Assembly: GCA_000320545.1 (NCBI GenBank)
Contig: ADNK01003243.1
Span: 3,723 to 67,722, forward strand
Reading direction: 5' to 3'
DNA: 64,000 nucleotides
From: Bigelowiella natans CCMP2755
Lineage: Eukaryota; Protista; Cercozoa
Positions 405 to 63,986 of the stretch are shown one piece after another. Position 1 is the first letter of the stretch. Every line of letters starts with the position of its first letter. The position numbers and the translations under genes were made by a program. The notes under the pieces were generated by a model. That model was given only the letters and a program-made list of their open reading frames with translations. It had not been told where the DNA came from and searched no databases.

Positions 405-1836
405 ATGATCGTGCGGGCTCGAGGCACTGCAGAATGGGACCATAAAGACATCGAATGGGCACAATTAGATAAGACCAAGATGCTGGGCTCACAGACTGCA
501 ATGGTATCTTGTTTCCCACTAAAATGCTGTTGTCGTTTTTGTATCTGAGTTTGTGCGCAAATTGCAGGCGGTAGGCCTACGTGGGATGTTATATCCAAAT
601 AGCGTTATAAAAACACACGTCCAGACAAACGTGTTGACTGGTACAACAAAGGAGGTGGCGAGGACTATTATTGAAAGGTACAATTGAGCAACTATTTGTC
701 CGCAGCGAAAACAGACGAAAACAGATTAGTTTACTTCTTTTGAATGATCTCACTCATACTGTCATTACGACAGGAACGGACTTCGCGGCCTATGGCGCGG
801 GTTTTTCACATGTCAAGTTGGAATTATCCCCGCTCATTCGGTGTATGTGACTGCTCTGGAATGCAGCAAACAGTATATAAAGCAGCACCTGGCAATACAG
901 AAAGGTGTTGGATCCAGAAGAGCGACGCAACTGAGTTCTTTCATGGGGGGAGCTGCTGCCTCTCTGTGTGCAGCTGTAGTACGAACACCTACGGTAATAC
1001 ACCAAAAAACTTGAATATTTGTCTTGAGAAACTACACCTGACACCTCATCATCAGAACTTCTCATCGTTTCTGTTATCCCCTCCTCTAGGATATAATAGC
1101 TCAACGATTAATGATTCAAGGAACGAAGGGGGCTTCGACGGCATACAGCAATGGGTTTCACGCCTTTCGAACAATTCTGAAAACTGAGGGGATCCGTGGA
1201 CTTTATGCAGGGCTGGGCGCTGCTGTCCTTGTTTCAGTACCGTTCTCGGCTACTTTTTGGGGGAGTTACTCTTCTCTAAAGTTCTATATTGGCCATAGTA
1301 TGTCTGGACTCGCCTCGACTGTAGAAGAAAGAAGAAGAAGAAAGCAAAATAATTTGAGCAATCTAAGTAATAGCAGAAGTAGCAATAGTAGTAGAAATAT
1401 GATGCCAGCTGCGGCTCAAGCAGAAGCTGCTGAGAATCAGCTTGCCACTGCCATAAATGCATCTACTGCCTCATCGGAAAATGATGAAATTAGCAAAGGG
1501 ATATTGTCCAAAGCTCCTTTCGGAATGTGGGAAGCCTTAGTATTTTCGAGTGCTGCGTTTCTCTCAGCAAGCTTGGCAGTTGCTGTAACAAACCCCATTG
1601 ACCTGGTGAAAACTAGAATCCAAACAAAAGCCAAGACCGGACGAACAGCAGAAGGCGGGAGGCTTGCTCAAAGCGGTGCTGGCATCCGGCAGCATCTATG
1701 GAGTATAGTGCGGTATGAGGGTTGGTGGAGTCTGACAAAAGGATTTAGTTCAAGAGTATTAACAACAGGACCATTCTCGATTCTAGGGATACTGGTGTAT
1801 GAGGGCACAAAGCACATGAGTCGAAAAAGTCTTTGA
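405..1836 (+). CDS. SLC25A44: Mitochondrial carrier family protein, SLC25A44-like (multi-exon)
   Basis: Exon 1 from ATG 405 reads MIVRARGTAEWDHKDIEWAQLDKTKM; the IEWxxLDKxK N-terminus is typical of SLC25A44. The next exon has MLYPNSVIKTHVQ. ORF 1111-1836 has EGIRGLYAG, the carrier signature NPIDLVKTRIQ (PxDxxKxRxQ) and EGWWSLTKG. GT-AG introns lie between the pieces. Confidence 0.85.
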
Positions 1837-8933: not shown

Positions 8934-9589
8934 AGTAGATCGAATTGTAGATCTAATCTAAAAAGTTACGACCAGCTTAACTGTTGTAACAACACATGGA
9001 TATTCAAGTTATTTTGTTGTTGTTTTAACTTTAACCGAGTGATCATTCAGGAAGCATTGAGATATGCAGGAAGATTGTTGTTGTGCGCTACTGACTGGTC
9101 TCCGACGATGACTTGTCCATCAGAAAACAGTATTATCATAGTGTTCGGTAGTGGTGATTAGTTCTGTAGCTATTTGGCTGATAAGGATGTACCTTTCCTC
9201 CTCCTCGTTGTATGATTATAGATGATGAGGAAGCTGTGCTGATGATGAATGCACGGAAAGACCAATGATGATGACGACGATGAGCGTAGTTTTTAATGCA
9301 AAAATATAGGTCAGAAGTATTATCGATAAAATAGTGACCATTTGTCGTTATTCCTTGGTATATAAACAACAATAATATATCCAAACTAAAAGGACGATCG
9401 ATCAACGATAAAGTACCAAGCCAAATACATTCAAAAAAATGGGTCCTTTCCCGAAGTGATTCGATAATGTTCTGGATTAGTAATTTCCGGCTGTAATTAT
9501 TGTCCAAATCGACTTAGGTGTTTCATCATCATCATATATCTTAACTGACGTCTCATCCCACCCCCCCCTTGCTCCAAATTGGGCACAAC

Positions 9590-15322
<5,733 letters not shown>

Positions 15323-19300: not shown

Positions 19301-22300
19301 TGCTCACGCAATTGAGCAATTTCAACTTTATGAGCTTCTATCTCCCTTATATGCACCTGCCTTTCATTTTTCCGTGTCTCTCTCTCAACTCCAAGCGCCC
19401 TTTCTCGGTTGGAAAGCTGGGCACGTAGGCTAGAAACCTGCGTTTCCAGTGAAGAAATTCTCCCTTCCAACTTGAAGATTTGTGCTGTCTTGATAACACT
19501 TGATTCCCAGTGGGAGGAGCTTTGATCATCATCCACCTCACCTCCACCATCGAAAGATTTCATATTATTACTTTGACGACGTATACTATGATGATTAGGT
19601 TCCTTGGCTGAAGATAATAATGCATCACCATTCTTTCTCTGCTGCTGGGTTTGATGAACTTCATGTGCAACTACTATTCCTGCCTTCCCCTTTTCTTCTC
19701 CACCATTTCCATCATATTCAGCAGCAATGCTGGGCTCTTCCAGAAGCTTCTTCAAGCTACTCTCGAGCGCTTTTGCATGCAATGTCGCAACTTCTTGCTC
19801 GAGGTTGGCTATCTTGCCCTGATACCACTTATTTTTCTCTTTTTCAGCACGCAACATTGGCCCATCTTGCTGCTGTTGAGGATGAGGTCCTGCTGGTGGT
19901 TGTGGTGACTTATGAGGGCTATTCGTCCGTGCAGAGGATGGCATTTCATCAACTCTCTTGATCGCCTTAAGAGCTTCATTAACTCCTTCAACTTTTGCCT
20001 TCCATTCGCGAATAGCTGCCTTATATCTGTTGATATCTTTAGATTGTTTATCAAGCTTCCGCTCTACAACCAGGCATTTCCGTTTCCATTCGAGTAGTTC
20101 TGCAGTCGGCTGCTGCTTTTGCTGTTTTCGCATGATGCTACTTCTACGGTTTACCGACACACCTAGCTGGTCTGTTCGATGTTTGAGATCCTTGGTTGCG
20201 TTCAGTTGTGCTCGTAAACTAGAAACCTCCACCTTACGCTGGTCTAGCCTCTTCTTGGCGGTATCAAGTTGCATTTGAAGCGCTCGATTTTCTTCCCGAT
20301 TCTTACGAAGTTGGTCCGTTAAGGAACGAATATGGGATGAGGACACCGATGATGACTTTGATGTTGTCGTTGCCATACCCTGAGTGCTGTTTGCTTTTGA
20401 TCCATTGGCAATAAGTAACATTCTCTCAATGCTCTCACCTGCTGTTGTTATTTCTTGGGAGGCCTTTTCCATCTTACTGATAAAGTTTGTGATTAGCTTT
20501 GCTGCTCTTGCAGTTGGCCCTGCTGTAGCCTTTTTGCGTTTCTTGGTGTCCATTCTGACTGAGGAGCGCAAATGAATTTTCTTCGGAGCTGTTGTTGCTG
20601 GTACATGAGGGCCTGGTGATGTAAACACGTTGGAAGATGATGCTGCAACTATCACGATTCCAATTTGTTTATTTACATCTGCAACTACATCCCGAATCTT
20701 TAAAATCATGGAGGACGCAGAAGTGCTCATTTGTGCTTGGATATCATTATCATCATCATCATCATCGCCCCATGCTCGTTTTGGTTGTTGTATTGACAGC
20801 TTTATGTTCGCCTCTTGGGCTTCCTGAAGCTCTCTTTCAGCCTTTTCCAATTTGTGACTTAAGTCGCGAATGACTTCGTTCTGAGAGCTTGACGATGTGG
20901 ATGCAGCAGAAGGTGCTAACGAGTAATCATTGTCATCATCTGCTGCTTCTTCGTTTTGGGATTCATCTTGGTTTCCGCTACTGTTGAGGTCATTCGCATT
21001 CAAGCCTCTTGTTCCTAATGGAGAAGGATGTGGAAGACGCGATGATGAAAATGACGCTGACTGGTGGTGAGAGAGCTTCTTTTTCAGCTTCTCAACTTGC
21101 AAAGCTTTCATCATAACTTGCTGTGTCAACCGAATAATCACATCTGCTAGACCCCCCCCAGTTTCATCATCACTCGTTCTCAATTTAGCGTCTACACCAA
21201 CATCGTAGTCATCATAAACATCTCCAACAGTATTTTGGGAGCGAGTCGTTCCTCTCCTCGGTGTAGTTCCGCTTCTTCTTCTTCCTCCTCCTTCATTTCT
21301 TCGCTCAGTAGATGGAGGAGCCATTGGAGCTCGCTTAGGAGTCGGAAGCCCTATCATCGAAGATAATTGTGATACGCACTTTTTCAGACTTTTCTCGCGC
21401 TTTAATAGACGTTTCATTTCCACCCTCAAGATGTTCTGTTTTTCATCTTTCTCCTGAAGTTGCTTTTTTAGTGCTACAAGCTGTCTCTCAGCAGCAGCAG
21501 CAGCAGCAGTAGCAGCATTTGAAGAAGCCGGAGGTTGCTGCGCTGTAGCTGCTGCGCGTGACTTCATGGCAATTGAAACAGCGAGTTGTCGTCGCAAGTC
21601 TCCAATTTCAATTTCTTTTCTCACCAAATCTTGTCTGATATTCAGGGACTCGATTGCTGAGTTACTGCGATCTTTGAATTGTTGTCTCGAGGCTGTTACT
21701 GTCGCACTCGTAGTTGTTCGTTTCCTTCGCCCTTTGCTTAGTGTTTCTACCCCTCCTCCTCCTCCTCCTCCTCCTCCTCCTTTGGTATTGCCAACGATTT
21801 TGTTTCGTCGGAGAATTCTTAACTCTTGTTCGAGTTGTGCCAGCTTGGTGCGAGCTTCTGCTTCTCCTTGGGCACAAACCCTTGCTTTTCGAGCCGAGTC
21901 TGCTTGAGCAAGTTTTGCATTTGCAAGATGTTGTGCAAGAAGACCCGAATTCTCATTAATATTATTACTACTGGGGGGAGGCTTCATGCGAAGGCTTCTC
22001 CTGCCTTTATCTTCCAAAATCCTCAAAGTTTCTCGGTCCATATGTGCAATCACATGCTGTAGCTCATTTATTGCCTCTTGTTTCTTTTCTATTTCTTCCG
22101 TCTGGCTCCTACTACGCATTTCTGCTTTATGAAGACTTTTCGTTAGCTTGATGACTTCAGATTCCAAGCGTAGTCGATATGTAGCGCTGTCTGGAGAAGA
22201 ATCAGCCTCGAAATCAATTTCTACATTCTCTTCTTCTTCCTCGCTACCGTTTATACCTCTTCGAGATGTTGTTGTTGCTGCAAAATTTTTGATACCCCGA

Positions 22301-25300
22301 TTTTGTATGGAACCTAGCTGTTTGGCGTAGCGATGTTTCATGTCGCGCATGGCTTTCTCATGCTTGTGCTCTGTCCGTCGCACTTGCGTATTCGTGGAAG
22401 CTAGCTGTGATTGCAACCCCTTGTTTTCGGATAAAAGAGCTCGTTTATCAGCCTTAAGGGTTATAACCTCGCGTGAAGCTAGCTTCAACTCAAATTCTAA
22501 TCTTTGCGCCTCTGCCTTGTACTTTTCGAGAGCTTCATCGTATTCCCTTGCATTACGTGCATTGAGGCGTTCATTCGTGAAAACGTCTGCTTTGATACGC
22601 TGCTTCGCATCAACCAATTGTTTCTCCAAATCCTTTATTCGTTTCTCAGACCTAGCCAGCAAGACAGCACGTACTTCCTCGCCCTTACGAGAAGACTCAA
22701 GCTCTTTTTGTAGTGTAGATGCTTTATCCAATAGCTCAGCTTTGACAATATTCAAAGTGGCAATCTCATCTGCAAGATTTTTTGCAAGTGTTTTTACCGA
22801 GAAGGAAGGTTGGACACTATCTTTCGCATCGTGGGTGGAATTTTCTCCACTTCCTCCTCCTTTTTTTGTTACACCATCTTCGATAGCGTTATCACTGCGA
22901 GCAGTCAGGAGAGTCTTTTGCATTGTCTGCTCAATATATGTTTTTATGGCGGCATCGCGAGTGTTGAGCTTTTGAAGAAGCTCTGCTTCGACAATAGCTT
23001 TGCGTTTTGTCTCGTCACTCTCGTGTTCGAGTTCCATAATCCCCACCTGCCTTCGAAGCTTCTCGCATTCGCCCCTATATTGTTGGAGTTCTTTTTCTGC
23101 AGCAGCTGCTTCAAGCATAGCTGCCATCCGAGCTTTATCCACGTGCTCATTAGTTGTCAATAGCTCCGCTACTCGTTGCTCGCCACGACGACGCTCATGC
23201 ATCAGCTGCTTCGAATAAATTTCTTTCATGTCCTCCAACAGTTGATTTGCTCTTCTACCCTCATTTCTGCACTGCCGCCATCTATCTCGCAGAACATCCA
23301 TTTCTGCTTCGTCTCTGCGAATCTTTTGCTGTTGAAGCTGGCATATCCACCTTAGTCGACGAGTTCGTCTCTCACACCTTGTCACCGCTGATTCATTTCT
23401 CAATATAATTTGAGTCATTTCTTCGACTACTTCTGGAATATAAAGGAGGCAAGACATTGATTTATTTTTCATAACACTTTTTTTCTTTGAAGTAGAGGAA
23501 GACGTTGTTGATGCATGGCTTCCCCCTCCTCCTCGCCTAGTTTTTCTGAAACCCCGTTTCGCATTCTGAGCGAGAGAGGAAGAAGATGAACCTGCTGCTG
23601 CTTTTCGAGTGGCAAGAGGAGAGAGCAGTAGTGGTTCGGAAGAAACAATAGCATCTATTTTACTGTTGATGGCCTTGAGCAACTCAATTAAAGGAGGCCC
23701 TGCAACTGGACCACCGAGAGCAGAAGAAGTACCAGCACTTGCTGCAGTGGCAGGAATTGATGATGAAGGAATTTGATGATGTGAACCATCTCCGGCGAGA
23801 AGGACAGGGGGGTAACTATGGTGATTACTTTCGAGTAGTATATTTCCACTATCAACACCACCACTGCTGCTGTCTCCAGTAGCACTATTCAGAAGTATGT
23901 TCATCCACCAGCTTGAATTGTTGGTAACCCCTTGATCATCATCAAATTTGTTCTCATCTGCTATTTCGGATAGTATCCGTAAGTGTTCTTTTCGTTCCTG
24001 TCCTAATCTTTCTAGTGCTGCATCACGCGCTTCTCGAAGCTGCTGCTTGAGATCTTCACAATCACGTCGACTATTATCAGAATCAGCTCTCAGTCTCATG
24101 ATTTTCTGAGTCATCTGGAATTTGGCAGCATCCTCAGCACTGGACTTATTCCGTAGCTGTGTGATTTCTAATCGCTGTTTCTGAATCAATTTCTTATGAG
24201 CTTCACGCTCAGCCTCAAGACGTGAAACTTTTGACGCTAACGTATCCGAGTACTCCTGACTCTGAGAGACGAGATGAAGTTGGCGCTTGTAGCTTTCGTT
24301 CATGCGTTCTACTTGTTGTTCTAGTGTGCTTTCAATGGCCTTGGCAGCTGAGAGATGTGCTGCCAGGTGAATCACCTTTGTCTTCGCATTACTACTTATA
24401 GTCGTAAGTGAAGAGGAGGAAGAAGAGGATCTATTCTTCTGTTTCATTTTATCGACGTTACTACTTTTATTTTTTACAAAAGCTCTGTGATCATCATTTT
24501 CATGGGTGACACCCCTATCCTCACAGCCTGGTTCAAGTGCTTCTACTGTTTCCATTAGCACTGCAATTTGAGCTGACTTTTCTTTTACTAATGCCTGCAT
24601 GCGATCTCGTTCACGTTCAAACTTAGAAGATAAACGACGCTCTGCAGTTACTTCTTCCCTAACTTGCTGAAGATTTTTTTGCAACTTGAGTGCTTCTGCT
24701 TCGTGATGCTCCCTTTGTTCTTCGAGCTGGTTCCTGATTGTGTCACACATAGATTCCGCAGAGCTAACAGCAACACGGGTTTCTTCAAGCTTCTTTGCTC
24801 CATCTGATAACTGCTGACGATACGAAAGCACCTCTTCAGTATGCTTTGTATGTAAAATAGCGGCTTCTTCTGTCGCTCGGGTAGAAGACTGCAACAATTT
24901 TGCATTTAAGCTCATACACTGTTTTTCATACTCCTTTGCTTCTGCTAGAGCTTCACGTCTCTGGAGCTTGACACGATGTAGTGCAAGGCAGAAATGATCC
25001 CGTTGCTGACTCAAAACTCTAATGAGGTCTTGCTCATTTCCTGCAGCAGCAGCAGCTTGCATCTGATGATGGACTCTATGTAAAGCAGCGAGACTTGTGT
25101 CGACGACTGCTGCAATATCGTCACCATCACTTACTTTACTGCTATGCTTCATTTCTTCAATTAAAGCCTTTGTTCTGCCTGCGTGTTCTGCCTCACGTGC
25201 TTCCAGTAGCTCAGATAGTTTGTCGATTTCTTTTGCTTGAGTTTCGATTCTCTCCCCGAGTCTAGCAAGGGTTTCATCCCTTTCAAGTCCCGCAGGAGTA

Positions 25301-28300
25301 GAGCCAACAGTACCAAGAATGTCCCATTTCTTTGCAGAAATAGAATACTTTTGCAACTGCCTTTTCAAGCTCATAACTTGTTTCTCAGCCTCTGCTTCTC
25401 TCTCTTCCGCCCTTTTAGCATCACCTTGAAAACGCGATAATTGCAGTCTCAATTCACCTTTATCAGCTCTTTCTATCGCAAGCTGTTTGTGAAGATCTGA
25501 TCTTGCGCCAAGAGCCTTGATGGTCTCTCTAAGATGCTTTATATTTTGTTCTCCTTGTTGCTTTACCCTCTCGTGCTTTCTTTCCAGCCTCTTAACCTTG
25601 TCTTTATACTCCGCAATTGCGTCGTCACAATCCGCTTGAACCTCTATCTTTTCTTCGTGTACCTTGACCAGTGACTGCCGTAGCTGAGCATTTGAAACAA
25701 GCTGTTCGTCTAAAGCACCACGAATACGTTGAATCTCATCCTCAAGGTCTCTACTACTCTTTTTCTTCATCATCATAATTTCTGCTGCTGGTGCTGGTTC
25801 CCCATTTCCTGATTCATGTCGTCCACCACCACTACCACCTTTAGCGTTGCTGCTATTGGATGATCTTCCACGTATGGATGCTGCTGTGGATGATGATGTA
25901 GCCAACCTTGTCATTTTCCGGAGAGTCTCTTCCAATCGCTCTATCTCTATTCGATAAACCTGGCGTTCGTCTTTTAATCTCTGTCGTAGTGCCTTTATGG
26001 TTAAACCACGGTCGGAAATCTTCGATTCGTCAGTGAGCCATGGCTTTGATGAAGCAGAAGAACCCACATCTTCTTCCCTTCTCCCAATACCTCTACTTTT
26101 GCCTGCTCTTCTTCCATTTTGAGTATTATTATTATCCTAGTGATATGTGATCGTGATATTGTGGAATCAGTATTGTTGATGATAATTATGGTAGTATGAT
26201 AAAGGCGATGATCAAATAACACCAAAGCTGTGATCTAGAGATATATGCTATACTTGGAACAGAAAGACAGACAGATAACCAGCAGAAAATATTGTTTTTA
26301 TGAGTGACTTACCGGATGGGAGACTTCATCTTTGTTCTTATCACCGTCATCACCATTCTTTTCTTTTTCAAATTTGCCAAGAATGTCGTGGTTCTGAATC
26401 TTCTTGTTTGCAGGGGGGTGAAATTGTTTAGGATGTTCTTCTTTTTTGTTTGTTTCAAATCGTCTGTTGGAACGACTTCCTTGCTCAAAGATGTCGTGGT
26501 GAAACGATGGTTGCGGTTGCCTTTGAAGCTCCAAGTGTGCTATTCGTAGTGAAGTAGTTAACTTTGAATTTTGAACTTCGGCTACTTTAAGGCGTTCGCG
26601 AGTATGCTTAAGCTCTGCACGCAGCTCTGCCATAGGTCCCACGCGGCCGATACGCTTCGGTCTCCGAGCATGGCTTTTTCCTGCTACTTGTTCGTCATCT
26701 GGGGATAGACGCTCAGCTAAGTTCCTAAGCTCTTGACCGTGTATTTCACGTTGATCGTTCATCCTGGTTTGTAGCCGGTCAACTTTGGCCTCGAGTTCTT
26801 GTATTATCCCCTTCAATTTTTGGGATTTGCTTCCAAATTTGTCACCACTTATCACCTCATTATCATTGTCACCGTCATCACCATTGCGTTGTTCGTCTAT
26901 AGAGGAAGAAACGTGAAGCTTTTTGATTAAGGCTTCAATTTGGTCTTGCTGATCCTGCAGTTTCGCGCGAAGTTTGACGATTTCGGAAGTCTTCAGAGTT
27001 TCTATGAGTTCTGAATTTTGCTTTTGGTAGTGTGAAGCTTGCTGTTTTACTTGGTGCAGCTCTGCATTGCTCTTTTTTAGAAGGTGAACAGTGTCTCGCA
27101 GCTTGGTTTCCAGCTCTTGCTCTCGACGATTTTTCCCATGCAAGATACTCTCAGCTTCAGTAAGTTTTTTGTGTGCATTCTCAGACTCACGCTTGAGTCT
27201 CTGTTCCAGCTCAACTTCGCGGTCTTTCAGCGTCTGAATCTCTACATCCTTTACTTTGAGAATACTGAGCACTTTCCTGGATTTTTCTTCATTCGACCTT
27301 CTTTCATTGTAGACGGCTTCATCAGCGAGAGCGTGAGCGAGAGCTTGGATCCTTTGTTCATCCATCTCATCCATGGATGTTCCCCGTTGTAACTCATGCA
27401 GAGTTCTGGCCCGTGATGTGGCAAGATCTGCTTCCACACGCAAATGTGCCGCTTCCTCTCGGGCTACCGCAAGCTCGGTCCTAAGCGTCTGAACTTTGTG
27501 TTTCAAATCGATGTTATGTCGATGTATTGACCTTTCTCTCGGGTTGAGGGTCTGTTTTTTACGTGGAGTTGTTGATTTGTCGCTGCTATTTTCAGACGAA
27601 TCATCATAATCTTGCCAATCGTCGTCCTTTGCAGAATTGTTGTGCCGATTTTCGGCCTTCGTTTCAAGAGGGAGATAATCTTTAAGCTCACTTTTATGTT
27701 CTTGCGAGGAAGAAGATTTGGTGTGCATCATTTCTTCAGTGGCTTTCGTTGCTGCTGGTTTTGAAGTAGCCGCAGCTTTTCTACGTTTTTGAGGTTGTTT
27801 CTTCTTCTTCAACTTCGTCGTCGCAGTAAAACAGTTGCTATTCCCTCGGTGGAGAGATCCTCCCACTGGCTGCTTTAATGTATCTGTTTGCTCTGTTTGT
27901 AAAACGTCTTCTGCTAAATCTACTATTGCTCTGGAATGAGAAATATTGCGATCCGGATTTACCCTTAAAAATTCAATCATGTGGATCTATTAGCCGGAGT
28001 TTTGCAACAACAGTAATACGTAATTCTCACCCCCACACGTAGAATAGACCAAAGAAGCGTTGCTCGAACAGTTGTGACTTTATTCGAAAAACGGATTTGT
28101 GTCCCTAGAGACATATCAAGGTGAATAACATGTTGCATATTATTGAAAGCATTTGTTGTCACCTTAGAACCTCTTGGCTTTGGAGGTGGATTGTGCAGTT
28201 TCAATTGCACCTGAATCATACCAACGGACTCTCTCAGGAAATATCACCCGCACCTTCTTATCCGCATATTCACCCATATACTTGCACAAGTACTCTCATT

Positions 28301-36668: not shown

Positions 36669-36750
36669 CTCCAGCGTTGCCGATCGGCGCCATCAAGTGT
36701 GATTCGTCAGGAAGCCCGAGTTGGGTTCATCCACCACAGTCTACTTTTCT

Positions 36751-37437
36751 ATGGAGCCTTCTACCGCTCTCCCAGATGCGAAAACAGTGTTTAAAGATGG
36801 ACCTTCTTCGTTTTCACCAATCGTTAAACTTGATGGGAAGAAAATCATAGTCCGAGACTTTACTAAAACTGGCACTGCAGAAGAACCTCTAGCTGAGGGA
36901 ACGTATGATATTGGGCGATATAACGAATTAAGGCCTGGGATGTATGTATCGGAATTATATCAGGACCAAAAAAATGAGATTGAGGGCTACAACGGTGAAA
37001 GAAATATTCACATGGGTCTGGACATTGGAGGTCCAGCAGGAACGCCAGTACACTCTTTTGCAGACGGAACAATTCACTGCTATGGATACAACCCCGAAAA
37101 GGGAGACTACGGGCACGTTGTCATAATTAAATACCAGGTAAATAATACTCCAGTTTGGGCGCTCTACGGACACCTCAGCGGCAAGTCTTGCGGGTACAAA
37201 TACAAAGGAATGTCAATAAAGAAAGGTGACGTGATTGGCTGGTTCGGAACAGAAAAAGAGAATGGTGGCTGGCCCCCTCATGTTCACTTCCAGCTCTCCT
37301 TTATTGAACCAAAAACACATGATCTACCTGGAGTAGTATCTCTTGCAGACCATTCTCGATCAGAAAAACAATTTCCTGATCCAAGGTTGGTCCTAGGCCC
37401 CCTATATCCAGGAGAGGGTTTGTTTCGTCCAAAATGA
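36751..37437 (+). CDS. Bacterial-type M23 family (peptidoglycan DD-)metalloendopeptidase, intronless CDS
   Basis: HMGLD (HxxxD), GTPVHSFADG, GDYGHVVII, LYGHLS and GGWPPHVHFQL (HxH) zinc-site motifs. The first in-frame ATG is at 36751, with an in-frame TGA just upstream. Confidence 0.9.
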   Translation: MEPSTALPDAKTVFKDGPSSFSPIVKLDGKKIIVRDFTKTGTAEEPLAEGTYDIGRYNELRPGMYVSELYQDQKNEIEGYNGERNIHMGLDIGGPAGTPVHSFADGTIHCYGYNPEKGDYGHVVIIKYQVNNTPVWALYGHLSGKSCGYKYKGMSIKKGDVIGWFGTEKENGGWPPHVHFQLSFIEPKTHDLPGVVSLADHSRSEKQFPDPRLVLGPLYPGEGLFRPK

Positions 37438-39470: not shown

Positions 39471-40982
39471 ATTGATGAGCATATACACGCAAAACATAAC
39501 ATCAAATTTATATATTACGTTTTGTTCTCTTCTTGTTGTGCCTTGGAAGCCAGTCGCTTAGCATCCTCTGCGCTGATTTCCTTAGGCTAAATTTTTGTTT
39601 TCGAAAAAAAATTATGACTATTACATTTTCTTTTATCGCTATTCATCCACCTTAAATTCGCCTGCCAAGCGTTTCTCTTCGTTAGTCATTTCATGGGTAA
39701 AGTATGATGTTTTTGAACCATCAGCTCTAACCCTATAGCCTTTCATTATCTTTTCCTTGTCGTCATCATCTATTGATTGCCACAGAAATCGTTTCCAGCA
39801 AGTTGAATAAATTCGAATAATTTGGAATAGGTTAATACGTTAAATAATGTCAGTATTTGGATACTATCATGTACAAACCAGTGAGCTGCTCTGATTTATC
39901 TTGAATGATATCCTCCTTCACACACCACCACCTCTTGTTTGGGTTATTCTTGACTGTTGTTCGCCTGTTGGCAGCTGCAGCCACATTTGGTGCTGCTCCT
40001 TCTTCATTTATAGATGAATTACTGACACATGGACCAATAAGTTGAGAAGATTCTTGTTTCTTTGCAAGCTTCAGAAGGCATTGGGTCTCCAAATCATGTT
40101 CATCTAGAGCTAGTGATATTTCCAATGACTCAACCGCATTTGAATAATCTCCCATTTTCATCAGACATTCACCCCGGATACGATGAGCCTGTTTTTGATA
40201 GAATATAGTCATCTAATTTGTCAAATAAATCTGATGTAATAATAAGTGCACCTGTGGGTAACGATCGTTTATTCCTAAAGCTTCCTCGGCATCCTAAATT
40301 CATAGGAAAATGATTCTCATCAGAAGATTCGAGACATTAGATCGAAAGAAAACTGCGCACCTCAAGAGTCTCTTCAATTCTTCCCATTTTCAACAAAACT
40401 TCTGCCCGTGTTCCGAACAACACTGGATTGGAGGAATTGTGGGATATTGCGCAGGATAGCCTAGGAGGACACCGGCGAGGAGAAGTGCAAAAAGAAAAGT
40501 TGTTGATACATAATATGTCAGTACGAGTTACAACGACTATTGCTGTCATTTAGAATTTTAAATTATTGTAATGAAAAGAATGGGAGCTCGTGAAGAATCT
40601 GAGCATGAATCGTGTGTTCGCTCTTGAAAAATTACAATTTCTCTGCAATTGGGTAATTCTTGTCTTTCGTCGCAGCTATTCCACGCCTATATAGCTCATT
40701 CACAAGCGATTGTCTGTCTTTGTCCGAAGATGGTTGAGCACTTAGGACATCTATGTGAGGATTCATCATCAAGGAGCTTGCAGAGGGAGCCCCGAACATA
40801 CCTCCTCTCAAAAATGATGTCATTCGACGATAACGACGAGTACGAATCCCTGATCGAAGAGGCACATCCGACGAAGAAGGTGGCAGAGGTGATGAAGGTA
40901 AAAGGGACATGAAAATTGCTGCTATTAAAATCGAGCAGCTAATAGTGGTGCAGCTTCCCCTCTTTCCATCATTATCCATCAT
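38299..40982 (-). CDS. TPR + Aha1 N-terminal-like domain Hsp90 co-chaperone with an N-terminal signal/transit-like leader
   Basis: TPR exons: ELYRRGIAATKDKNYPIAEK, NPVLFGTRAEVLLKMGRIEE and AHRIRGECLMKMGDYSNAVESLEISLALD. These are followed by GYRVRADGSKTSYFTHEM, GGSWWAGGTWEEIK and VKSGVKKYIIDLSFKVSW..GTLEYNEV (Aha1_N-like). The last exon ends KVLSEFKKF*. Confidence 0.75.
39305..39342 (+). repeat. Poly-G tract (G-quadruplex-capable), intronic
   Basis: About 38 nt of G interrupted by two A. A shorter poly-G lies at ~14963-14983. Confidence 0.85.
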
Positions 40983-41571
40983 CCGGGGCTTTATCCTGTA
41001 TGAAAGTATAATGTTCTGTCTGACGTATCGATTGCAACTACGGAACAGTGGATTTGAATTGCGCTTAGTTATGTAGAAATTAATAAACAGTTAGCAGTGC
41101 CATAAAATTACGCACATGCCCGGATGTCTTCTCTTTTCCTATCACGGGTAATGGAGGACCATGGCCGAAGGAGCAACAACTGGAGGAGGCGACTGATAGA
41201 GGTACACACTATGCTCCATTTTGCAACCTACGACATAAAATCTCGATATGACTCATGGTGTAAATGGCATTGGTTTTCAACCATATCAATGGTAGGACTT
41301 AGGAGGCAAATGGCCTGTATTTCACAATAATATTGTACGTATTATTATTTTTATCATCTACCGTAATTCGGAACACTGCCAACAAGCACGTGGCACCCAT
41401 AATGACTAACTGCACGTGCTAATCCGATGATGATCCAACCCCATTGATATCATTCGAACAGTGTCAGCTACATGTGTTGCGCTGTACTTTTCAACGCAAC
41501 ATATGCTCGCCATGCACAAGGCGAGAGATGAATGAAGCAGGGCGAAGATTCTCCGCCACCGACTATCAATC
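40983..41571. promoter_or_regulatory. Putative bidirectional promoter region (TPR-Aha1 / FEN1)
   Basis: About 590 bp between divergent start codons; no specific element identified. Confidence 0.4.
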
Positions 41572-44500
41572 ATGATGGTCCGACTAGTCATCATCTCCCT
41601 GCCAGTCTTCCTCCTCTTCTTCACTATTTTTGCAAGAATGGCCATCATCTCCAATGCGAGAGGATATGACAATTCGCTTGGTGGTATTAGAGGATTGTCA
41701 AAACTCATCGAGGAACAAACACCGTATGATGACTAATTGTGTACCCCATTTGCAATCTTCAAGGGATTGCATATTGCGTGTGTTTGGGTGTATGTGTTTC
41801 TTTCTGTGTAGGAACATAAATACATACTTTGCAATCGTAGTATGTACTCACATTACACATTGTCGTGTCGAACCTGCACTACTCCTCCTCCTTAACAGTC
41901 GGGCCATAGTACGACCGATCGAGTTGCAGGACTACTCTGGCAGAAGGATTGCTATTGACGGGAATATGGCTTTGTACCAATTTCTGACTGCAATTCGAAC
42001 GGTACGTACACAGAGAATGGAAACATAGGCATCTGACGACATATTCAATAGACGACGACGGCAACGACGACCATCACCGATTATATTCTGATGTATGATG
42101 ATCAGCGACGGCCGAAAGTAGGCATATTATCACAACACCTTCGAAGCTATCGTTCAGGAAATGTCACTTCACATTTACTTGGATTGTTTACAAGCACCAT
42201 TGCGCTTCTCAATGAGGGGGTGGGTGATTGAGTTTGCAGTATCAAGCAGCTGCATGATAGACAGTAGACTATACTGTAATCTAGTAGTAGCAGCGAAACA
42301 GACAGAACCCATCATGTGTACACACACACTAATTCAGGTGGAGATCATCTACGTATTTGATGGAAGGTTTCATCCATTCAAAAGACATATTCTCAATCAG
42401 AGAATGATGAGAAAACGACTTGCTACGGAAAGAATGGAGTAATGTTTCTCCATTGCTTCCAATCTTTCTCTGGGTTTTGAATATTGTACTGTAATTAGAA
42501 CTGCGAGAGCTGAAGCGTTCAGTCTCAGTTGCAAGATGGAAGAATTAAAAAATAGAAAGAGGAAAGCAGTAACCAACATCATGTGTCCCTCTCCTCTTCC
42601 CGCTACAACTTCCATCCCTCTTCTTGTTTCTGATCCTATGCTAAGCTTCCCTGCAACTTCATTATCATCCTTATCTATGAAGCAGCAGGTATCACTATAC
42701 ATGTGTGTACGCATACATTATGCAGCGATAACTCGCTCAGTTGACAATCATCGCCATTTTCAGCGACTAAACATCGTAATGAAGATCCTTTATTGATTCA
42801 ATTTACTCCTACTAATGTGGTTGGAATTGTTGGATATATATCATATATCTTATGTCAGGAATCTGGGGTTGGAGGATGGCCGCTACTGCTATATACAACA
42901 GTAGGCTCTTCTAACAAAGACGTTGCACCCAACACAGTTCTAGACAGAAGTCATAATCCTCTTTGTCCACTCCTGTTAAGCTACAACGAAAAGGAAGATA
43001 ATATTTTTGACGAAGGAGGTGGAAGAGTACATCTAGAAAACAACACTGCAACTTATCACCACGACCAGCAGAAGCAGAAGGTACATTTTGTGACCAGAAA
43101 TGTATTATTATGCACAACAAACTATTCTCGTTCCGACGAAGATAGTAGAGAGGAGGATGAAAATAGTAGGAATCTTTTCTCTACTCAGAAGCAGGATTTA
43201 AATACAGTAGCAATAGAAAAAGAAGACCAAATAGCTACTACTGCTCCAATAGAATACCATTGTGACGTCGTCGGTAGTGCCATGAGGAAGGAGGGTGGTA
43301 CGACTGAAGACAAAGAAGAAGGACAAGAAGAACAAGAAGAAGCTCGAGCTGAGGAAATCCTAAAGACAATAGAACAACAGCGGCGACAGACCGTGCGTGT
43401 TAGTAGGTAGAAGAGATTTTGGCTACAAAATATGTCTAATTATTTTATTCCTAAATCATCCTACTTAATCTCTTCTATTGTTGCCAATCGCTTAATATTT
43501 TCCTGCCTCTCTATATTACTCGTATTAGATGAAATAAAATTTTTTGATCTTCCTCTTCTTCCTCCTCTCCTCTCCTCTCCCGCCATTCGGTCATGATGAT
43601 TCACCTATGCCGTATGTCTGTTTGTTCTTCATGCTACATATTAGTCACATGGTTGCAGAGTCTATTCAACTTCTGAAATTAATGGGAGTTCCAGTGCTAC
43701 GAGCTCCTGGGGAGGCTGAAATCCAATGTGCAGCAATGGCACGTCAGGGTATTGTACATGCTGTTGCTACCGAAGATCTTGATGCAGTAGTGGCTGGTGC
43801 CCCACGTGTACTGCGCGGAATCATAGGGGGGTCACAGGATCCTTCAGCATCATCTCAGGCTGATGCTATTAAACGCAGCAGTCGACGAGGTCGACAACGA
43901 CATAATAAGGTACTATTTTTGAATTTATACCGTGATGAAACTCAAGTTGAGATTAGCATGATTGTATATAGGATATTAAATTCATTGGTGTTACATTTTA
44001 TTTGCGAATAATAATGACAGATGAATGAGGTGGTTCTCGAGACAATGTTATCAGATCTGAACATTACTTTCGAGCAATTGACAGATTTGGCTACAATAGT
44101 TGGATCAGGCATGATGATGGACACAATATCTCGTCGTTGTCGTCGTCGTCGTCTATACTAATTGGGCATGTGTTAACAGCGTTCAATAAACTTCATCGAT
44201 TCAAATAGTAATGAAATGTGTGTCACCAGATTACTGCGATGGAATTCCAGGGGTTGGTCCAAAGAAGGCTATCAAGTTGTTGAGACAGCATGGAAGCTTG
44301 GAGTCATATTTAAAAGCAGTTTTCAAGAAAACCACCGACCAAACCAAGCGTGCAAACATTGCTTTCGATCCGAATCACTTGCTTCGTGTTCGCAATCTGG
44401 TATATTTTACAAAGATGGGATGTAAATTATGTATTCAAATTCGACTACGTTGACAATCGAGATTATCCTTTTTCATTGCAGTTCGCACACCCCAATGTTG

Positions 44501-44758
44501 AGACGACATCTTTGGATCGAGTGCGCTGGAGAAAGAAGCCTGATGAAAAGGGATTAATTAAGTTTTTAGTAGAGGAAAGAGGTTTCAATTCGAAGCGAGT
44601 TCAGACAGGAATCCAAACTTTGAAAGTTACGATGCAGAAAGAGGTCACAAGGACATTCAATCTATCACTTTCTCTGATTTTAGTTAGAGTGTCGATCGCC
44701 CAATTTCTAGGTCCAAACTAGGCTGGACTCATACTTCTTGCAGCAATCCAGCTCCTGA
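41572..44758 (+). CDS. FEN1: Flap endonuclease 1 with an N-terminal signal-peptide-like extension and a C-terminal PIP box
   Basis: Exon 1 reads MMVRLVIISLPVFLLFFTIFARMAIISNARGYDNSLGGIRGLSKLIEEQTP. Later exons give YSGRRIAIDGNMALYQFL, YVFDG, APGEAEIQCA, ATEDLD, GS|DYCDGIPGVGPKKA and PDEKGLIKFLVEERGFN. The last exon (44711-44758) is VQTRLDSYF...*. All catalytic acidic residues are visible. Confidence 0.92.
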
Positions 44759-45358: not shown

Positions 45359-45359
<1 letters not shown>

Positions 45360-45492
45360 TCTGCTTCTGCTGCTGGTGGTGATAAGGTGTGGTGTTGTTT
45401 TCTAGATGTGCTCTTCCACCTTCTTCGTCAACAACATCATCTTCCTTTTCGATGCGACGTACAGGAGTAGACAAAGAGGATTATGACTTCTG
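45359..45492 (-). repeat. Inverted, diverged copy of FEN1 internal segment 42945-43079
   Basis: The reverse complement aligns over ~134 bp with 42945-43079. Translations: EKEDDVVDEEGGRAHLENNTTPYHHQQQKQ versus EKEDNIFDEGGGRVHLENNTATYHHDQQKQ. Confidence 0.9.
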
Positions 45493-46102
45493 CTAGGTCA
45501 GCTGCCTACGTACTTGTAGGGCGCGATGCAGACCGTAGGGGCGCAAGGCGCGGCACCCGTGCCACGCATGCACAAAATAAAGAGGTTATTGTCTACATTT
45601 GCATGTGTGCCCTAGTCATGCGGCATGAGTGTGCTTCATGCACATGCGAAAGCATCCATATATCCATGTCGTGTCGTCATGCAATAATGCCACGCAGCAA
45701 GCAGTGTATAAGTGCGTGCGTGCACTAGTGCGATCGGATCATTGTAGCGTGATGTAATTGTAATGATTGTACGCTGTATGTATGTATGTAGCCGCTTAAC
45801 CGCGAGCACAAATAGCTGCATTAGAGCTACCATTGGCGCAGCTTTTATTCGCACATCGCCAGATCGCCATCGATCGTGATGTACAGGTTCATGGGTGTAG
45901 TAATTATCCTAAATGTGTGTGTGTGTAGTGTGTAGTGTGTAGCGAGTGTGTGTGTGTGTGGCAAACAAAATTCAACATGTGTTTAAACAAGTAACGACCA
46001 AATACGTACATTGCAACGCGTGTCGCTGCTCAGAATACATTTTGTTTCGCTGTATTTCATTATGCAAGCATATGCTTCTGGGATAAGATATCCTGTCATA
46101 AT

Positions 46103-49100
46103 TTAACGAAGCATGTTCGAAACAGCATTAAGAGCTTTTTGCGCTAAAGCTAGATCCTGAGATTTTGCTGCCCCGACCATCTTTACACCATTCACTGTAA
46201 GTTCGATGAGGACTGGAGACCCATTGAATTTCAATGAAAAATATAAATGTGTATTTCCATTTGATGGTCTAGAGGCTACGAAGAAAACATTCGTAGAGCG
46301 GAGGGTAGCTTTGATTCCTTCAGGGTCGCTGATGCTTATTGCTGGGAGTTTAACCTCTGCTTCCTGTGCGGGTAGATTCTTCCACATACTGAGATATCCT
46401 GATTGATTAAGCTGTCCATCTTCGCCGAATAGAGTTTCATATCCCAGATTCGCCGCAAAGTATAGAACCCCAACTTTAGTTTTAAGAGCAATTTGAATCA
46501 CCCCTTCTGCCATATCTTTATTCGCTGCCTCAGGTTTCAACAACATTTTATGCGATGCTCCTCCTATGCCACCAGGCGAAATGGGTGACACTTGTACTCT
46601 TGCGCTTGCTGGTGAAAGTCCGACAAAGTTTTTGTTAACTTTTATTGCAAATTGGTCCAGGATAACACTGCTTGAGTTTTGAAACCGCATCTCCAGGTAT
46701 ATATCGCCATTCTTACGAGAAAATCCAGCTTTGATAGCTAATCCTTTACCTTTTTGTGCATTTAATACAAGAGGAAGAGAAGCTTTCGCAGTCGCAGCAG
46801 AAGTAGCGGAAGTGTTAACAACCGCAGGAACAGTAGCCGCGGACGCACCACTATCATTGTCCCCCATCAGGTCCAAAATGTTTATTGTTGCGGCTGCAGG
46901 CTGAGGTGTTGAGACAGGCGTCGAAACTGCTGCTGCTCTGTTTGCCTTTATCTTAGATTTTCTTTCTTTCACCTCTTCTTCTTCCTCCTCTTCCTCATCC
47001 TCATCTTCGTCTTCATCCTCGTCCTCGTCCTCATCTTCATCCTCATCCGAATCATCGTCAGCCACATCACGCCTCGAGTGGCCTTTTAACTCGAAACTTT
47101 GTTTCCCATCCTTGATGAAGAGCTCCGGAGGCTTGTGGTAAACTGATGCTAATGTTGCCAAATTCGAAATAAGGACCTTCAATACTGAAGGATCAATTTT
47201 GCCGGTATCATCTGCCATCTTCGGTTTTTCTGATAGAATCACCTTCTGAGCAACCTTTGCATCAGTAGCAAGCATACGCCAGTAAACGTAAGCTCTGTCT
47301 CTAAGGTCGGGATTTCCGATTACACTAGATGCTCTCTTTAAGAGGCCTTGTACCATGTCCTTACCATCATCGGGGCGTTTCAAGAAGAGTTTGACGGTTG
47401 AGGTTAGGAGAGACAATTGACAATCTGGGTCCATATCCTCAAATCTGTCAATACATCCTTCTATGTACTCAGGAGCATCTTCAATAATTGTCGCATACTC
47501 CCCTAGGATCCATATCATTGCTGCTAGTGGTTTTTCCTCATCGTATCCTTCCACTCCATGCTTGCAGACAATATCAACCACTTTTTCGAATCTATTAGGG
47601 TACTTCCGAAGGATATCTGCCATTACTGAGACCGAGTTTTGCGCTACATAGCCCACAATCCTATCTTTCCCATCCCCTTCACCTCCTGGGTTTGCCTTGA
47701 CAAAGTCCAGCAGAACCCTCATACATTTCCTTGCTGCCCCGTCTAATTTGACGGCCACGCGTCCAATTGTCGCTATGGACTTTCGAACAAAAGTCTCATC
47801 CACCTCGTTACCGTACGCCCTGAGTTCCATCAAGATCTTCTCATAGTTTTCATTATTTGCGATCCGTGCCATAATTTCCAACTTTTCCAATTTGACATAG
47901 AGTGGATCGTTATATTTTACGAAGAAGTGACGGACATGCTTGTCAAGAAGATGTCTCTCTTTCTGCAGAATGAGGTTTATGTTGCGCAGTGCAATGTACT
48001 GCAACTCAGGTTTGTCCCCTGAAAGGATCGTGATCAGAGGATTAGGAATTTTCTCTCGTAGAACATAAGTACGCATGCTGTTGTTCTCGACAACGTCAAG
48101 GTATTTTATGATAACTTTAACAGCTGAAAGGGCAACTGCAGAATTGGCGTGAATTAATCTGGGAACTACTCGCTCAATTACAGTTTCTGCCTGTTTTGCC
48201 GTAGGATTATATTTTGAAAGACAATCGAGGATGGAAACCTGACCCCATTCCGTGCATTCATTCATTGCAGCAAGAAGTTTATTCAGCATATCAGGAGTAA
48301 TTTTAAACACGTCCTTCGATGTAGATTCAGCAATTTCGGCTAGAGCAGCAACAGCATTGGCCACTACCATTGCGTTATGATCAGAGATGAGGGAACGAAG
48401 AGTTTTCAAAAACCCGTGCTCCTCCACAGCATCAGGGGAGATATCATACAGTTTGGCCACGCAAACTGCCGCAGTTTTTCGCACATAAGGATCTGAGTCC
48501 TTTAATCCCTCGCTGAGGGAAGTACAGAAATAGTCTACTACATTTGGTAGTCGAATGCATCCAATGGTGCGAATAACAAGAGCCCTGATGAGGGGACTTC
48601 GATGTTTGGCATCCTTAGTGAAGCTGTTCACAGAAAGGAGAACCTACAAAACATGTACTCTGTAAATACATTGTACTGACTATTAAGTTCTGATATGAGG
48701 ATTGGTGTTGATTTTCAAGATTACAGGTTTTATCGCGTTTGTCTTACCGTCTTGGGATTATTTCGGGCGTACGTAATGATGTAAAGGTAAACCTAAGGTA
48801 GGAAAAAGTCCTTCATAACTATGCATTGATTGTTACGTCATCAATGGCACTTACCAGCTTCTTGAGCTCAACATCTTGAGTCATCATGCGTTTTAAAACA
48901 TCTGGAAAAAGAGAAGATACGTCTTTTCCAACCGTCATGGAAGCGATGACTTTCTTCACAGCATCCTTGGCTACACTGTCCTTCATCGAGTTCAGCTCGG
49001 ATTTGAGCTCAGCGATTTCCCCCTTCTTTGTTGTACTGAAGTAGCGGCTGTCATTTCCAGGTCCCTTCTTCTCCTTTTTGACCTTCTTGCTACGTTTCCC

Positions 49101-63395: not shown

Positions 63396-63986
63396 TTAGG
63401 GTTAGGGTTAGGGTTAGGGTTAGGGTTAGGGTTAGGGTTAGGGTTAGGGTTAGGGTTAGGGTTAGGGTTAGGGTTAGGGTTAGGGTTAGGGTTAGGGTTA
63501 GGGTTAGGGTTAGGGTTAGGGTTAGGGTTAGGGTTAGGGTTAGGGTTAGGGTTAGGGTTAGGGTTAGGGTTAGGGGTAGGGTTAGGGTTAGGGTTAGGGT
63601 TAGGGTTAGGGTTAGGATTAGGGTTAGGGTTAGGGTTAGGGTTAGGGTTAGGGTTAGGGTTAGGGTTAGGGTTAGGGTTAGGCTTAGGGTTAGGGTTAGG
63701 GTTAGGGTTAGGGTTAGGGTTAGGGTTAGGGTTAGGGTTAGGGTTAGGGTTAGGGTTAGGGTTAGGGTTAGGGTTAGGGTTAGGGTTAGGGTTAGGGTTA
63801 GGGTTAGGGTTAGGGTTAGGGTTAGGGTTAGGGTTAGGGTTAGGGTTAGGGTTAGGGTTAGGGTTAGGGTTAGGGTTAGGGTTAGGGTTAGGGTTAGGGT
63901 TAGGGTTAGGGTTAGGGTTAGGGTTAGGGTTAGGGTTAGGGTTAGGGTTAGGGTTAGGGTTAGGGTTAGGGTTAGGGTTAGGGTTA
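63396..63986 (+). repeat. (TTAGGG)n telomeric array, ~98 units, apparently interstitial
   Basis: Near-perfect TTAGGG repeats with three single variants (GTAGGG, TTAGGA, TTAGGC), followed by non-telomeric GAAATTAAGTGCCT. Confidence 0.97.

What the first reader, a model, noticed from the sequence alone, without database searches (positions are those of the whole stretch)
41572..44758. FEN1 with a signal peptide and an intact PCNA-binding box: candidate nucleomorph replication enzyme
Seen: an in-frame leader MMVRLVIISLPVFLLFFTIFARMAIISNARGYDNSLG (missed by the ORF track) replaces the usual initiator Met before GIRGLSKLI. The catalytic residues and the C-terminal QTRLDSYF PIP box are retained. 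Known: FEN1 is normally nuclear, and chlorarachniophytes and cryptophytes import nucleus-encoded proteins via the ER into the periplastid compartment/nucleomorph. Inference: a PCNA-dependent nuclease entering the secretory route makes sense only if it serves a second nucleus.
Basis: partly seen in the sequence, partly recalled or inferred. Interest (0 to 1): 0.75.

Follow-up and report, generated by a model that had tools for sequence, protein, structure and literature searches.

The report
Signal-peptide FEN1 for the nucleomorph
This alga carries a spliced, expressed copy of the DNA-trimming enzyme FEN1 whose usual start methionine is replaced by a hydrophobic leader that likely ships it to the remnant nucleus of its endosymbiont; the gene is probably one already machine-labelled as such in a 2016 table, but a likely independent parallel in cryptophyte algae, a large insertion and an often-unspliced intron appear unreported.

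Summary
Observation confirmed. RNA contigs show the leader (41572-41682) in the same exon as the FEN1 start, and define an 11-exon, 646-aa protein with all seven catalytic carboxylates, K93/R100, the catalytic Gly and a PIP box. The host is a chlorarachniophyte, very likely Bigelowiella natans. The gene is probably JGI#20879, listed as nucleomorph-predicted in Table S1 of Suzuki 2016, beside a leaderless S-phase FEN1 (JGI#56533); it was not discussed or GFP-tested in the text I read. The Amorphochlora orthologue (9 of 10 intron positions shared) also has a hydrophobic leader. Not found in my searches: (1) Guillardia and its clade have a separate FEN1 whose signal peptide ends on a signal-peptidase-type site directly before the catalytic Gly; (2) a 223-aa acidic insertion between the nuclease regions, where XPG has its spacer; (3) a GC-AG intron splitting the Asp233 codon, retained in 7 of 7 contig runs and spliced in 5 of 7. 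Against a simple 'replication enzyme': JGI#20879 mRNA peaks at dawn, opposite to S phase, and the Amorphochlora PIP box is degenerate. Localisation is untested and origin (green or host) unresolved.

The parts
41378..41571 (+). 5' untranslated region (contig 5' ends at 41378, 41382, 41384); 8 upstream ATGs; two CACGTG at 41387 and 41413
   Evidence: 8 uATGs against 7.2 in dinucleotide shuffles, so not enriched
41572..41682 (+). 37-aa leader: hydrophobic core residues 5-21, then a short polar segment; candidate -3/-1 cleavage sites after A29, G31 and G37 (read by eye)
   Evidence: SignalP not available
41572..41723 (+). exon 1 CDS: leader plus Gly38 (codon 41683-41685), the equivalent of FEN1 Gly2
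41899..42001 (+). exon 2 (D34, Y40, R47 equivalents)
42106..42219 (+). exon 3
42338..42438 (+). exon 4 (D86, K93, R100 equivalents; gateway helix 4)
42499..42688 (+). exon 5 (start of the insertion)
42515..43353 (+). 223-aa insertion (residues 163-385, across intron 5) at the tip of the helical arch; pI 4.9, no Pfam family in its exon 6 part, mostly low-confidence in the model
42859..43406 (+). exon 6 (rest of the insertion, cap helix 5)
42940..43079 (+). 140 bp of exon 6 with an inverted 87% copy at 45359-45496
43645..43909 (+). exon 7 (E158, E160, D179, D181 equivalents)
44021..44108 (+). exon 8
44109..44229 (+). intron 8: 121 nt, GC-AG, phase 1 inside the codon of the Asp233 equivalent (D521); often retained, giving a 537-aa product without D233, the H2TH DNA-binding motif and the PIP box
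   Evidence: database proteins P0121 and P0123 are the retained form
44230..44399 (+). exon 9 (helix-two-turn-helix motif)
44482..44643 (+). exon 10 (3'-flap pocket region, K314/R320 equivalents)
44711..44758 (+). exon 11 CDS: PIP box (44714-44737), 6-residue tail with no Lys or Arg, stop
45359..45496 (-). downstream inverted copy of part of the insertion, beyond the covered 3' end of the mRNA

Best explanation
A nucleus-encoded, spliced FEN1 gene of a chlorarachniophyte keeps its full catalytic set and PCNA-binding box behind a hydrophobic leader, which likely routes the protein through the ER into the periplastid compartment and nucleomorph, where it is predicted to trim 5' DNA flaps on nucleomorph-encoded PCNA. 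Shown: gene structure, leader in the mRNA, conserved active site, PIP box, loss of the basic tail, an orthologue with the same kind of leader. Inferred steps: (1) the core (residues 5-21) acts as ER signal peptide, cut after A29 or G31; (2) the remaining 6-8 residues serve as a minimal transit segment and are trimmed so that Gly38 becomes the free N-terminus, the job that Met removal does in ordinary FEN1; (3) the enzyme docks on nucleomorph PCNA and does both Okazaki-flap removal and long-patch repair, while a leaderless paralogue serves the host nucleus; (4) supply is set by a dawn-peaking mRNA and throttled by inefficient splicing of the GC-AG intron.
For: Neighbouring beta-adaptin is 87% identical to Amorphochlora and at most 58% to the other named hits among the 120 listed. 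Leader unspliced in 3 of 3 contig runs. The Amorphochlora orthologue has a 42-aa hydrophobic leader in place of Met, shares 9 of 10 intron positions (compared by hand) and is the sister sequence (SH-aLRT 99). Suzuki 2016 Table S1 lists FEN1 JGI#20879 (scaffold 104, 'NM') and FEN1 JGI#56533 (scaffold 103, 'no-signal', S-phase cluster); the one AP1B1 row seen is also on scaffold 104, as the two genes are adjacent here. The B. natans nucleomorph encodes PCNA, and POLD, POLH, RFC1 and RPA1 were GFP-localised to it. Gly2 'at the processed N-terminus' is part of the FEN1 active site (PMC5490271). Of 276 FEN1-like proteins, Gly2 was located in 221; 15 lack Met before it, and 14 of these are chlorarachniophyte (5 rows, 2 genes) or in the Guillardia clade (9 rows, three clusters). 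Tail after the PIP box is 6 and 7 residues against a median of 37 in 202 of 273 proteins with a box, in line with nucleomorphs lacking a canonical pore complex (PMC6411479).
Against: No localisation experiment found; the published NM label is only TMHMM plus homology to Arabidopsis nuclear proteins, so it is not independent of the leader. JGI#20879 mRNA is highest at 0 and 24-28 h and lowest at 12 and 36 h (871 to 48, about 18-fold), in subcluster A2-2 with photosynthesis genes and opposite to nucleomorph POLD. The Amorphochlora PIP box has Asp for Gln and its leader ends in Arg before Gly, which is not a signal-peptidase site. Some DNA-contact residues are changed in the window protein (R70 to S, K125 to Q, R129 to Q, K201 to H, R239 to P) and the branch is long. 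Intron 8 is retained in 7 of 7 contig runs. The match to JGI#20879 rests on scaffold co-location, not on sequence. The protein set was retrieved with leader-bearing queries, which may enrich leader-bearing hits.
Confidence: 0.72

Rival explanations
1. The leader is a plastid-stroma signal and the enzyme processes flaps in plastid DNA without PCNA; the PIP box is a relic.
For: Dawn-peaking subcluster A2-2 is rich in plastid photosynthesis genes. Plastid proteins use the same signal-peptide plus transit-peptide layout (PMC4641359). The Amorphochlora PIP box is degenerate.
Against: The polar segment after the hydrophobic core is only 6-16 residues, while the FtsZ leaders tested for stroma import used 90-92 residues. 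The window protein keeps a canonical PIP box on a long branch, and Guillardia-clade copies keep one too. PCNA is nucleomorph-encoded; that plastids lack PCNA is recalled knowledge.
Confidence: 0.12
2. A decaying paralogue: still transcribed, but mostly non-productive through intron retention, with an insertion that grew from non-coding DNA and a leader that anchors it in ER membrane.
For: Retained intron 8 in 7 of 7 contig runs; GC donor where Amorphochlora has GT; 140 bp of the insertion has an inverted copy in flanking DNA; insertion 223 aa against about 90 aa in Amorphochlora; 19-residue hydropathy 2.46 is in the membrane-anchor range.
Against: Open frame over 11 exons with all catalytic residues kept; spliced form in 5 of 7 contig runs; orthologue kept in another genus at 47% core identity; a 600-aa insertion in this region left human FEN1 active (PMC1888826).
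Confidence: 0.09
3. Translation starts at Met23, downstream of the hydrophobic core, or both starts are used, giving a cytosolic or host-nuclear FEN1 with a short extension.
For: Met23 has a purine at -3 and G at +4 (read); database proteins P0121 and P0123 are called from Met23; an out-of-frame uORF from 41532 overlaps the first ATG.
Against: The first two ATGs also have A at -3; the Amorphochlora leader has no Met after its hydrophobic core; 15 extra residues would block the Gly amine; there is no basic tail; a leaderless FEN1 exists.
Confidence: 0.07

Closest known systems
Nucleus-encoded nucleomorph-targeted POLD, POLH, RFC1, RPA1 of B. natans, and JGI#20879 (Suzuki et al. 2016, PMC5635652)
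   Same: Same organism group and same logic: N-terminal hydrophobic leader on a nuclear DNA-metabolism protein, partner PCNA encoded in the nucleomorph. JGI#20879 is probably this very gene.
   Different: Those four were GFP-tested; FEN1 #20879 appears only as a table row, with a 1014-bp model, and the text names four NM replication factors without it. Its mRNA is out of phase with POLD (12/36 h) and POLH (8 h).
Eukaryotic FEN1/Rad27 (Pfam XPG_N PF00752, XPG_I PF00867; PDB 3q8k)
   Same: Best sequence hits (P0123: E 7e-32 human FEN1, 6e-16 Rad2, 4e-10 XPG) and best fold hit for the orthologue (3q8k, TM 0.88 by target); active site, wedge, 3'-flap residues and PIP box kept.
   Different: Met1 replaced by a 37-aa leader; D86-E158 distance 295 residues, the longest of 242 measured (median 72); no basic C-terminal tail; GC-AG intron in the Asp233 codon.
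Guillardia theta FEN1 XP_005825316 and its clade (P0214, P0244 cluster, P0263 cluster)
   Same: Hydrophobic leader replaces Met1; PIP box kept; host has a nucleomorph.
   Different: Separate clade (100/100) not grouped with the chlorarachniophyte pair; leader ends S-D-G, T-E-A or V-Q-G directly on the catalytic Gly, with no room for a transit peptide; no arch insertion; basic tail kept. Only G. theta is named; the others are assigned by the tree.
XPG/Rad2 and the engineered FEN-1-XPG hybrid (Hohl et al. 2007, PMC1888826)
   Same: Long acidic segment between the N and I nuclease regions (XPG spacer pI 4.5; here 4.9 and 4.5 in the two species). The hybrid cut flaps, weakly cut bubbles and had partial NER activity in cells.
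   Different: No sequence family match of the insertion; it is shorter, not conserved between the two species, and the core is FEN1, not XPG. Bubble activity untested.
Nucleomorph-targeted histone H2A of G. theta and B. natans (PMC5443833)
   Same: Precedent for independent acquisition of the same nucleomorph-targeted protein in both lineages, with unresolved origin.
   Different: H2A mRNA peaks in S phase and has a transit-peptide-like segment; its function does not hang on an exact N-terminus.

Membership tests
FEN1 (flap endonuclease 1) | XPG_N and XPG_I domains; closer to FEN1 than to XPG, EXO1, GEN1 | tested here: met
FEN1 (flap endonuclease 1) | Seven carboxylates plus K93 and R100 | tested here: met
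   D71, D131, E426, E428, D447, D449, D521, K138, R145; D521 only in the spliced form
FEN1 (flap endonuclease 1) | Free Gly at the processed N-terminus | tested here: inconclusive
   Gly38 is present but exposure depends on cleavage that I could not test
FEN1 (flap endonuclease 1) | Short helical arch (about 70 aa between N and I regions) | tested here: not met
   295 residues from D86 to E158 equivalents against a median of 72; gateway and cap helices are still predicted
FEN1 (flap endonuclease 1) | C-terminal PIP box | tested here: met
   Q633, L636, Y639, F640; degenerate in Amorphochlora
FEN1 (flap endonuclease 1) | Basic C-terminal tail (nuclear import role is recalled knowledge) | tested here: not met
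   6 residues, no Lys or Arg; median 37 residues and 12 Lys/Arg
FEN1 (flap endonuclease 1) | Double-flap cleavage stimulated by PCNA | not testable with these tools
   needs an assay
Nucleus-encoded nucleomorph/PPC-targeted proteins | Host has a nucleomorph | tested here: met
   chlorarachniophyte by neighbouring gene and orthologue
Nucleus-encoded nucleomorph/PPC-targeted proteins | N-terminal hydrophobic ER signal present in the mRNA | tested here: met
   (hydropathy only, no SignalP)
Nucleus-encoded nucleomorph/PPC-targeted proteins | Transit-peptide-like segment that stops in the PPC and not the stroma | tested here: inconclusive
   6-16 residues, net charge 0 to +1 (read); the primary papers on PPC signals were not available
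Nucleus-encoded nucleomorph/PPC-targeted proteins | Leaderless paralogue for the host nucleus | tested here: inconclusive
   JGI#56533 is listed as no-signal; its sequence was not retrieved and no genome is held
Nucleus-encoded nucleomorph/PPC-targeted proteins | Localisation shown by GFP or antibody | not testable with these tools
   none found
XPG/Rad2 | XPG-type nuclease core and spacer sequence | tested here: not met
   core scores far better with FEN1; insertion has no family

The most novel reading that the evidence does not exclude
Both nucleomorph-bearing algal lineages independently retargeted FEN1 and solved the same problem: import processing, not Met removal, creates the catalytic N-terminal Gly, so the enzyme is a zymogen until imported (in cryptophytes by signal peptidase alone, implying PPC import with no transit peptide). 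In chlorarachniophytes the copy has further become a natural FEN1-with-spacer that doubles as the nucleomorph's XPG-like repair nuclease, made before dawn and gated by a weak GC-AG intron in a catalytic codon.
Probability: 0.2. Interest if true: 0.8.

Novelty: new variant of a known kind. Interest (0 to 1): 0.5.

Why it matters
How the nucleomorph finishes lagging strands and repairs its DNA is open: the 2016 study named four imported factors and no flap nuclease. This gene fills that slot with a testable candidate in a transformable species. Because FEN1 needs a free Gly N-terminus, it is a built-in reporter of where periplastid leaders are cut, and the cryptophyte copies suggest import with a bare signal peptide. 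The parallel in two lineages extends the H2A case of convergence. The headline claim itself is an expected member of a known class and was probably already machine-predicted, which caps the surprise.

Tried and rejected
No whole genome is held, so the host FEN1, nucleomorph PCNA and a genome-wide GC-AG census could not be examined. No RNA holder was on record as RNA; the contig runs are taken as transcripts because they splice, and DNA carry-over is an unlikely cause of intron 8 cover since intron 7 had no cover in 4 of 4 and intron 9 in 1 of 4 runs. Contig depths are too rough to give a splicing ratio. X23 raw reads covered only the 3' end. Leader as an intron artefact: rejected. uATG excess: rejected (8 against 7.2). 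Origin: trees and the test may or did use the window protein without its N-region (241 of 341 columns), an alignment fault corrected; neither version places the pair. A clade with green plants is not rejected (p-AU 0.41, 0.88); tests with Spongospora and with the cryptophyte clade did not finish. The green-plant V-G-R signature at R47 is absent from the pair, a hint against green origin only; no named chlorophyte or chlorarachniophyte host FEN1 was in the set. Giant-virus origin, as for nucleomorph POLD: the top Atlas cluster was viral (0.94) but 29 of 30 hits were of the FEN1-type family set, led by eukaryote clusters; not pursued. Insertion: no Pfam family, Atlas scores under 0.8. Only two chlorarachniophyte genes were found. 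P0122 had no contig on record; P0124 did. Earlier scan findings: none. No complex prediction was run, as nucleomorph PCNA was not in hand.

Full report
Observation. The ATG at 41572 opens 37 codons in frame with GIRGLSKLI; there is an in-frame stop at 41533 and no Met before the conserved Gly. Exon 7 matches FEN1 structures first. Assembled contigs of three public runs from three coded studies start at 41378-41384, run through the leader without a joint and splice at 41723 to 41899. The ten joints give an 11-exon, 646-aa protein ending at 44758. All seven carboxylates, K93, R100, Y40, R47 and the PIP box align with canonical FEN1. Hydrophobicity alone is modest evidence: 30 of 617 ATG-opened frames in the window are as hydrophobic.

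Organism and prior knowledge. The adjacent beta-adaptin is 87% identical to Amorphochlora, so the host is a chlorarachniophyte. Suzuki et al. 2016 (PMC5635652; seen: passages, section 10 whole, supplement part 1 and searches of the 6,289 held rows of Table S1) list two B. natans FEN1 genes: JGI#20879 on scaffold 104, predicted NM, and JGI#56533 on scaffold 103, no signal. AP1B1 is also on scaffold 104, as FEN1 and beta-adaptin are neighbours here. I infer that the window gene is #20879; this is not a sequence match. The NM label came from TMHMM plus homology to nuclear proteins. The text names four NM replication factors, GFP-tested, and FEN1 only as a host S-phase gene; PCNA is nucleomorph-encoded. 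Of the searches for a nucleomorph FEN1, searches returned only this paper as relevant and searches returned nothing; FEN1 was absent from the main texts of PMC5443833, PMC3542566, PMC4494063 and PMC12730881 (passages). Subscription papers and the Curtis 2012 supplements were not seen.

Orthologue. Amorphochlora AAMO2058_001402900 (P0122, P0124) has a 42-aa leader with a hydrophobic core, again with no Met before Gly. Its gene has 26 introns; 9 of the window's 10 intron positions recur (compared by hand). The leaders share a design, not a sequence. Its PIP box has Asp for Gln, and its leader ends in Arg.

Mechanism. Gly2 at the processed N-terminus belongs to the FEN1 active site (PMC5490271, passages; PMC7993637, passages, for EXO1). 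A leader therefore has to be removed exactly. Of 276 FEN1-like proteins, Gly2 was located in 221: 189 start Met-Gly, 16 have extra sequence but keep Met before Gly, 1 is a pattern artefact and 15 lack the Met. Five of these rows are the two chlorarachniophyte genes, nine are Guillardia theta XP_005825316 and unnamed proteins that form a clade with it, one (P0362) is unnamed and weakly hydrophobic. The Guillardia-clade leaders end in small residues at -3 and -1 directly before Gly, the signal-peptidase pattern (recalled rule); further members show the same. In the window protein such sites lie after A29, G31 and G37; the first two are at the usual distance from the core, so a second trimming step is likely. 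Both chlorarachniophyte proteins lost the basic tail; nucleomorphs lack a canonical pore complex (PMC6411479, passages). The inferred route is ER, periplastid compartment, nucleomorph, docking on PCNA.

Insertion. The segment between D86 and E158 is 295 residues, the longest of 242 measured; Amorphochlora has 162, the median is 72. Models show helices 4 and 5 extended with a low-confidence loop between them, and the orthologue's core superposes on human FEN1. The insertion is acidic and has no family. An XPG spacer put into human FEN1 in this region kept flap activity, added weak bubble cleavage and gave partial NER in cells (PMC1888826, passages). That shows tolerance; an XPG-like role here is speculation. 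140 bp of it has an 87% inverted copy downstream of the gene, so part of it is recent or was recently copied out.

Intron 8. It is GC-AG and splits the Asp233-equivalent codon; the same position is GT-AG in Amorphochlora. Among 7 contig runs from 6 coded studies the retained form is in 7 and the spliced form in 5; contig depths spliced/retained were 10.1/16.2, 26.2/61.5, 12/9.0, 53.1/64 and 6.2/19.3, indicative only. Retention ends the protein at 537 aa, before the H2TH motif and PIP box; the two database proteins of this gene are that form. Searches on GC-AG or retained introns in these algae (listings only) showed no account of this. Regulation or a merely weak donor cannot be told apart.

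Evidence against the simple reading. #20879 counts over 13 four-hourly points are 871, 586, 78, 48, 154, 346, 736, 768, 106, 71, 183, 419, 749, against a peak at 8-12 h for the leaderless gene. That is subcluster A2-2, shared with photosynthesis genes, and opposite to nucleomorph POLD. This favours a repair role, a long-lived protein, or the plastid rival. Several DNA-contact residues are changed.

Origin. Unresolved. The pair is a long branch with no supported sister; the Guillardia clade is separate. Early trees lacked the window protein's N-region, corrected. A green clade is not rejected, although the pair lacks the green V-G-R signature. The test of one clade with the cryptophyte copies did not finish, so independent origin rests on the free trees, the different leader and insertion, and the separate origins of the two nucleomorphs.

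Verdict. Real gene, real leader, likely nucleomorph-targeted (0.72); plastid 0.12; decaying or anchored 0.09; downstream start 0.07. The class is known and this gene was probably machine-predicted in 2016. The cryptophyte parallel with cleavage at the catalytic Gly, the spacer-like insertion and the retained GC-AG intron make it a new variant. Interest 0.5.

Noticed in passing
P0250, P0214, P0244 and P0263 clusters (not in window): Guillardia theta FEN1 XP_005825316 and clade-mates carry a signal peptide ending directly on the catalytic Gly, with a PIP box; one cluster member (P0411) is labelled as an archaeal MAG protein, probably mis-binned.
   Followed up: partly
window 42940-43079 and 45359-45496: Inverted 140-bp duplication (87%) between coding exon 6 and the intergenic DNA between FEN1 and beta-adaptin; direction of copying unknown.
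   Followed up: partly
window 44109-44229: GC-AG intron, commonly retained; gene callers take the retained form and start at Met23, which hides both the leader and the PIP box in databases.
   Followed up: yes
window 41387-41392 and 41413-41418: Two CACGTG boxes 26 bp apart just inside the contig 5' ends; 10 in the whole window. Possibly linked to the dawn peak; untested.
   Followed up: no
PMC5635652 Table S1 row 2910 (JGI#54741): One of three LIG1 rows seen also peaks around dawn (cluster A2-1) but is labelled no-signal; worth checking for a missed leader as the partner ligase.
   Followed up: no
window 46103-48643 (-): Beta-adaptin encoded largely by one 846-codon open frame in an otherwise intron-rich region.
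   Followed up: partly
window 63396-63983: TTAGGG telomere array: the window ends at a chromosome end.
   Followed up: no
window 16368-27986 (-): Very long coiled-coil-like open frames (826, 2394 and 562 aa), probably one giant gene; no Pfam family for the 2394-aa frame.
   Followed up: no
window 36703-37437 (+): Peptidase M23 domain (E 1.6e-15) in a eukaryote, a family typical of bacteria (recalled); possible transfer.
   Followed up: no
window 9545-10030 (+): Frame with another hydrophobic leader-like stretch and no Pfam family.
   Followed up: no
window 1090-1836 (+) and 39850-40212 (-): Mitochondrial carrier gene; TPR-protein exon upstream of FEN1 on the other strand.
   Followed up: no
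window about 41000-41280: A separate contig in X1 and X3 with a loose end at 41115, so another spliced transcript lies just upstream of the FEN1 5' end.
   Followed up: no
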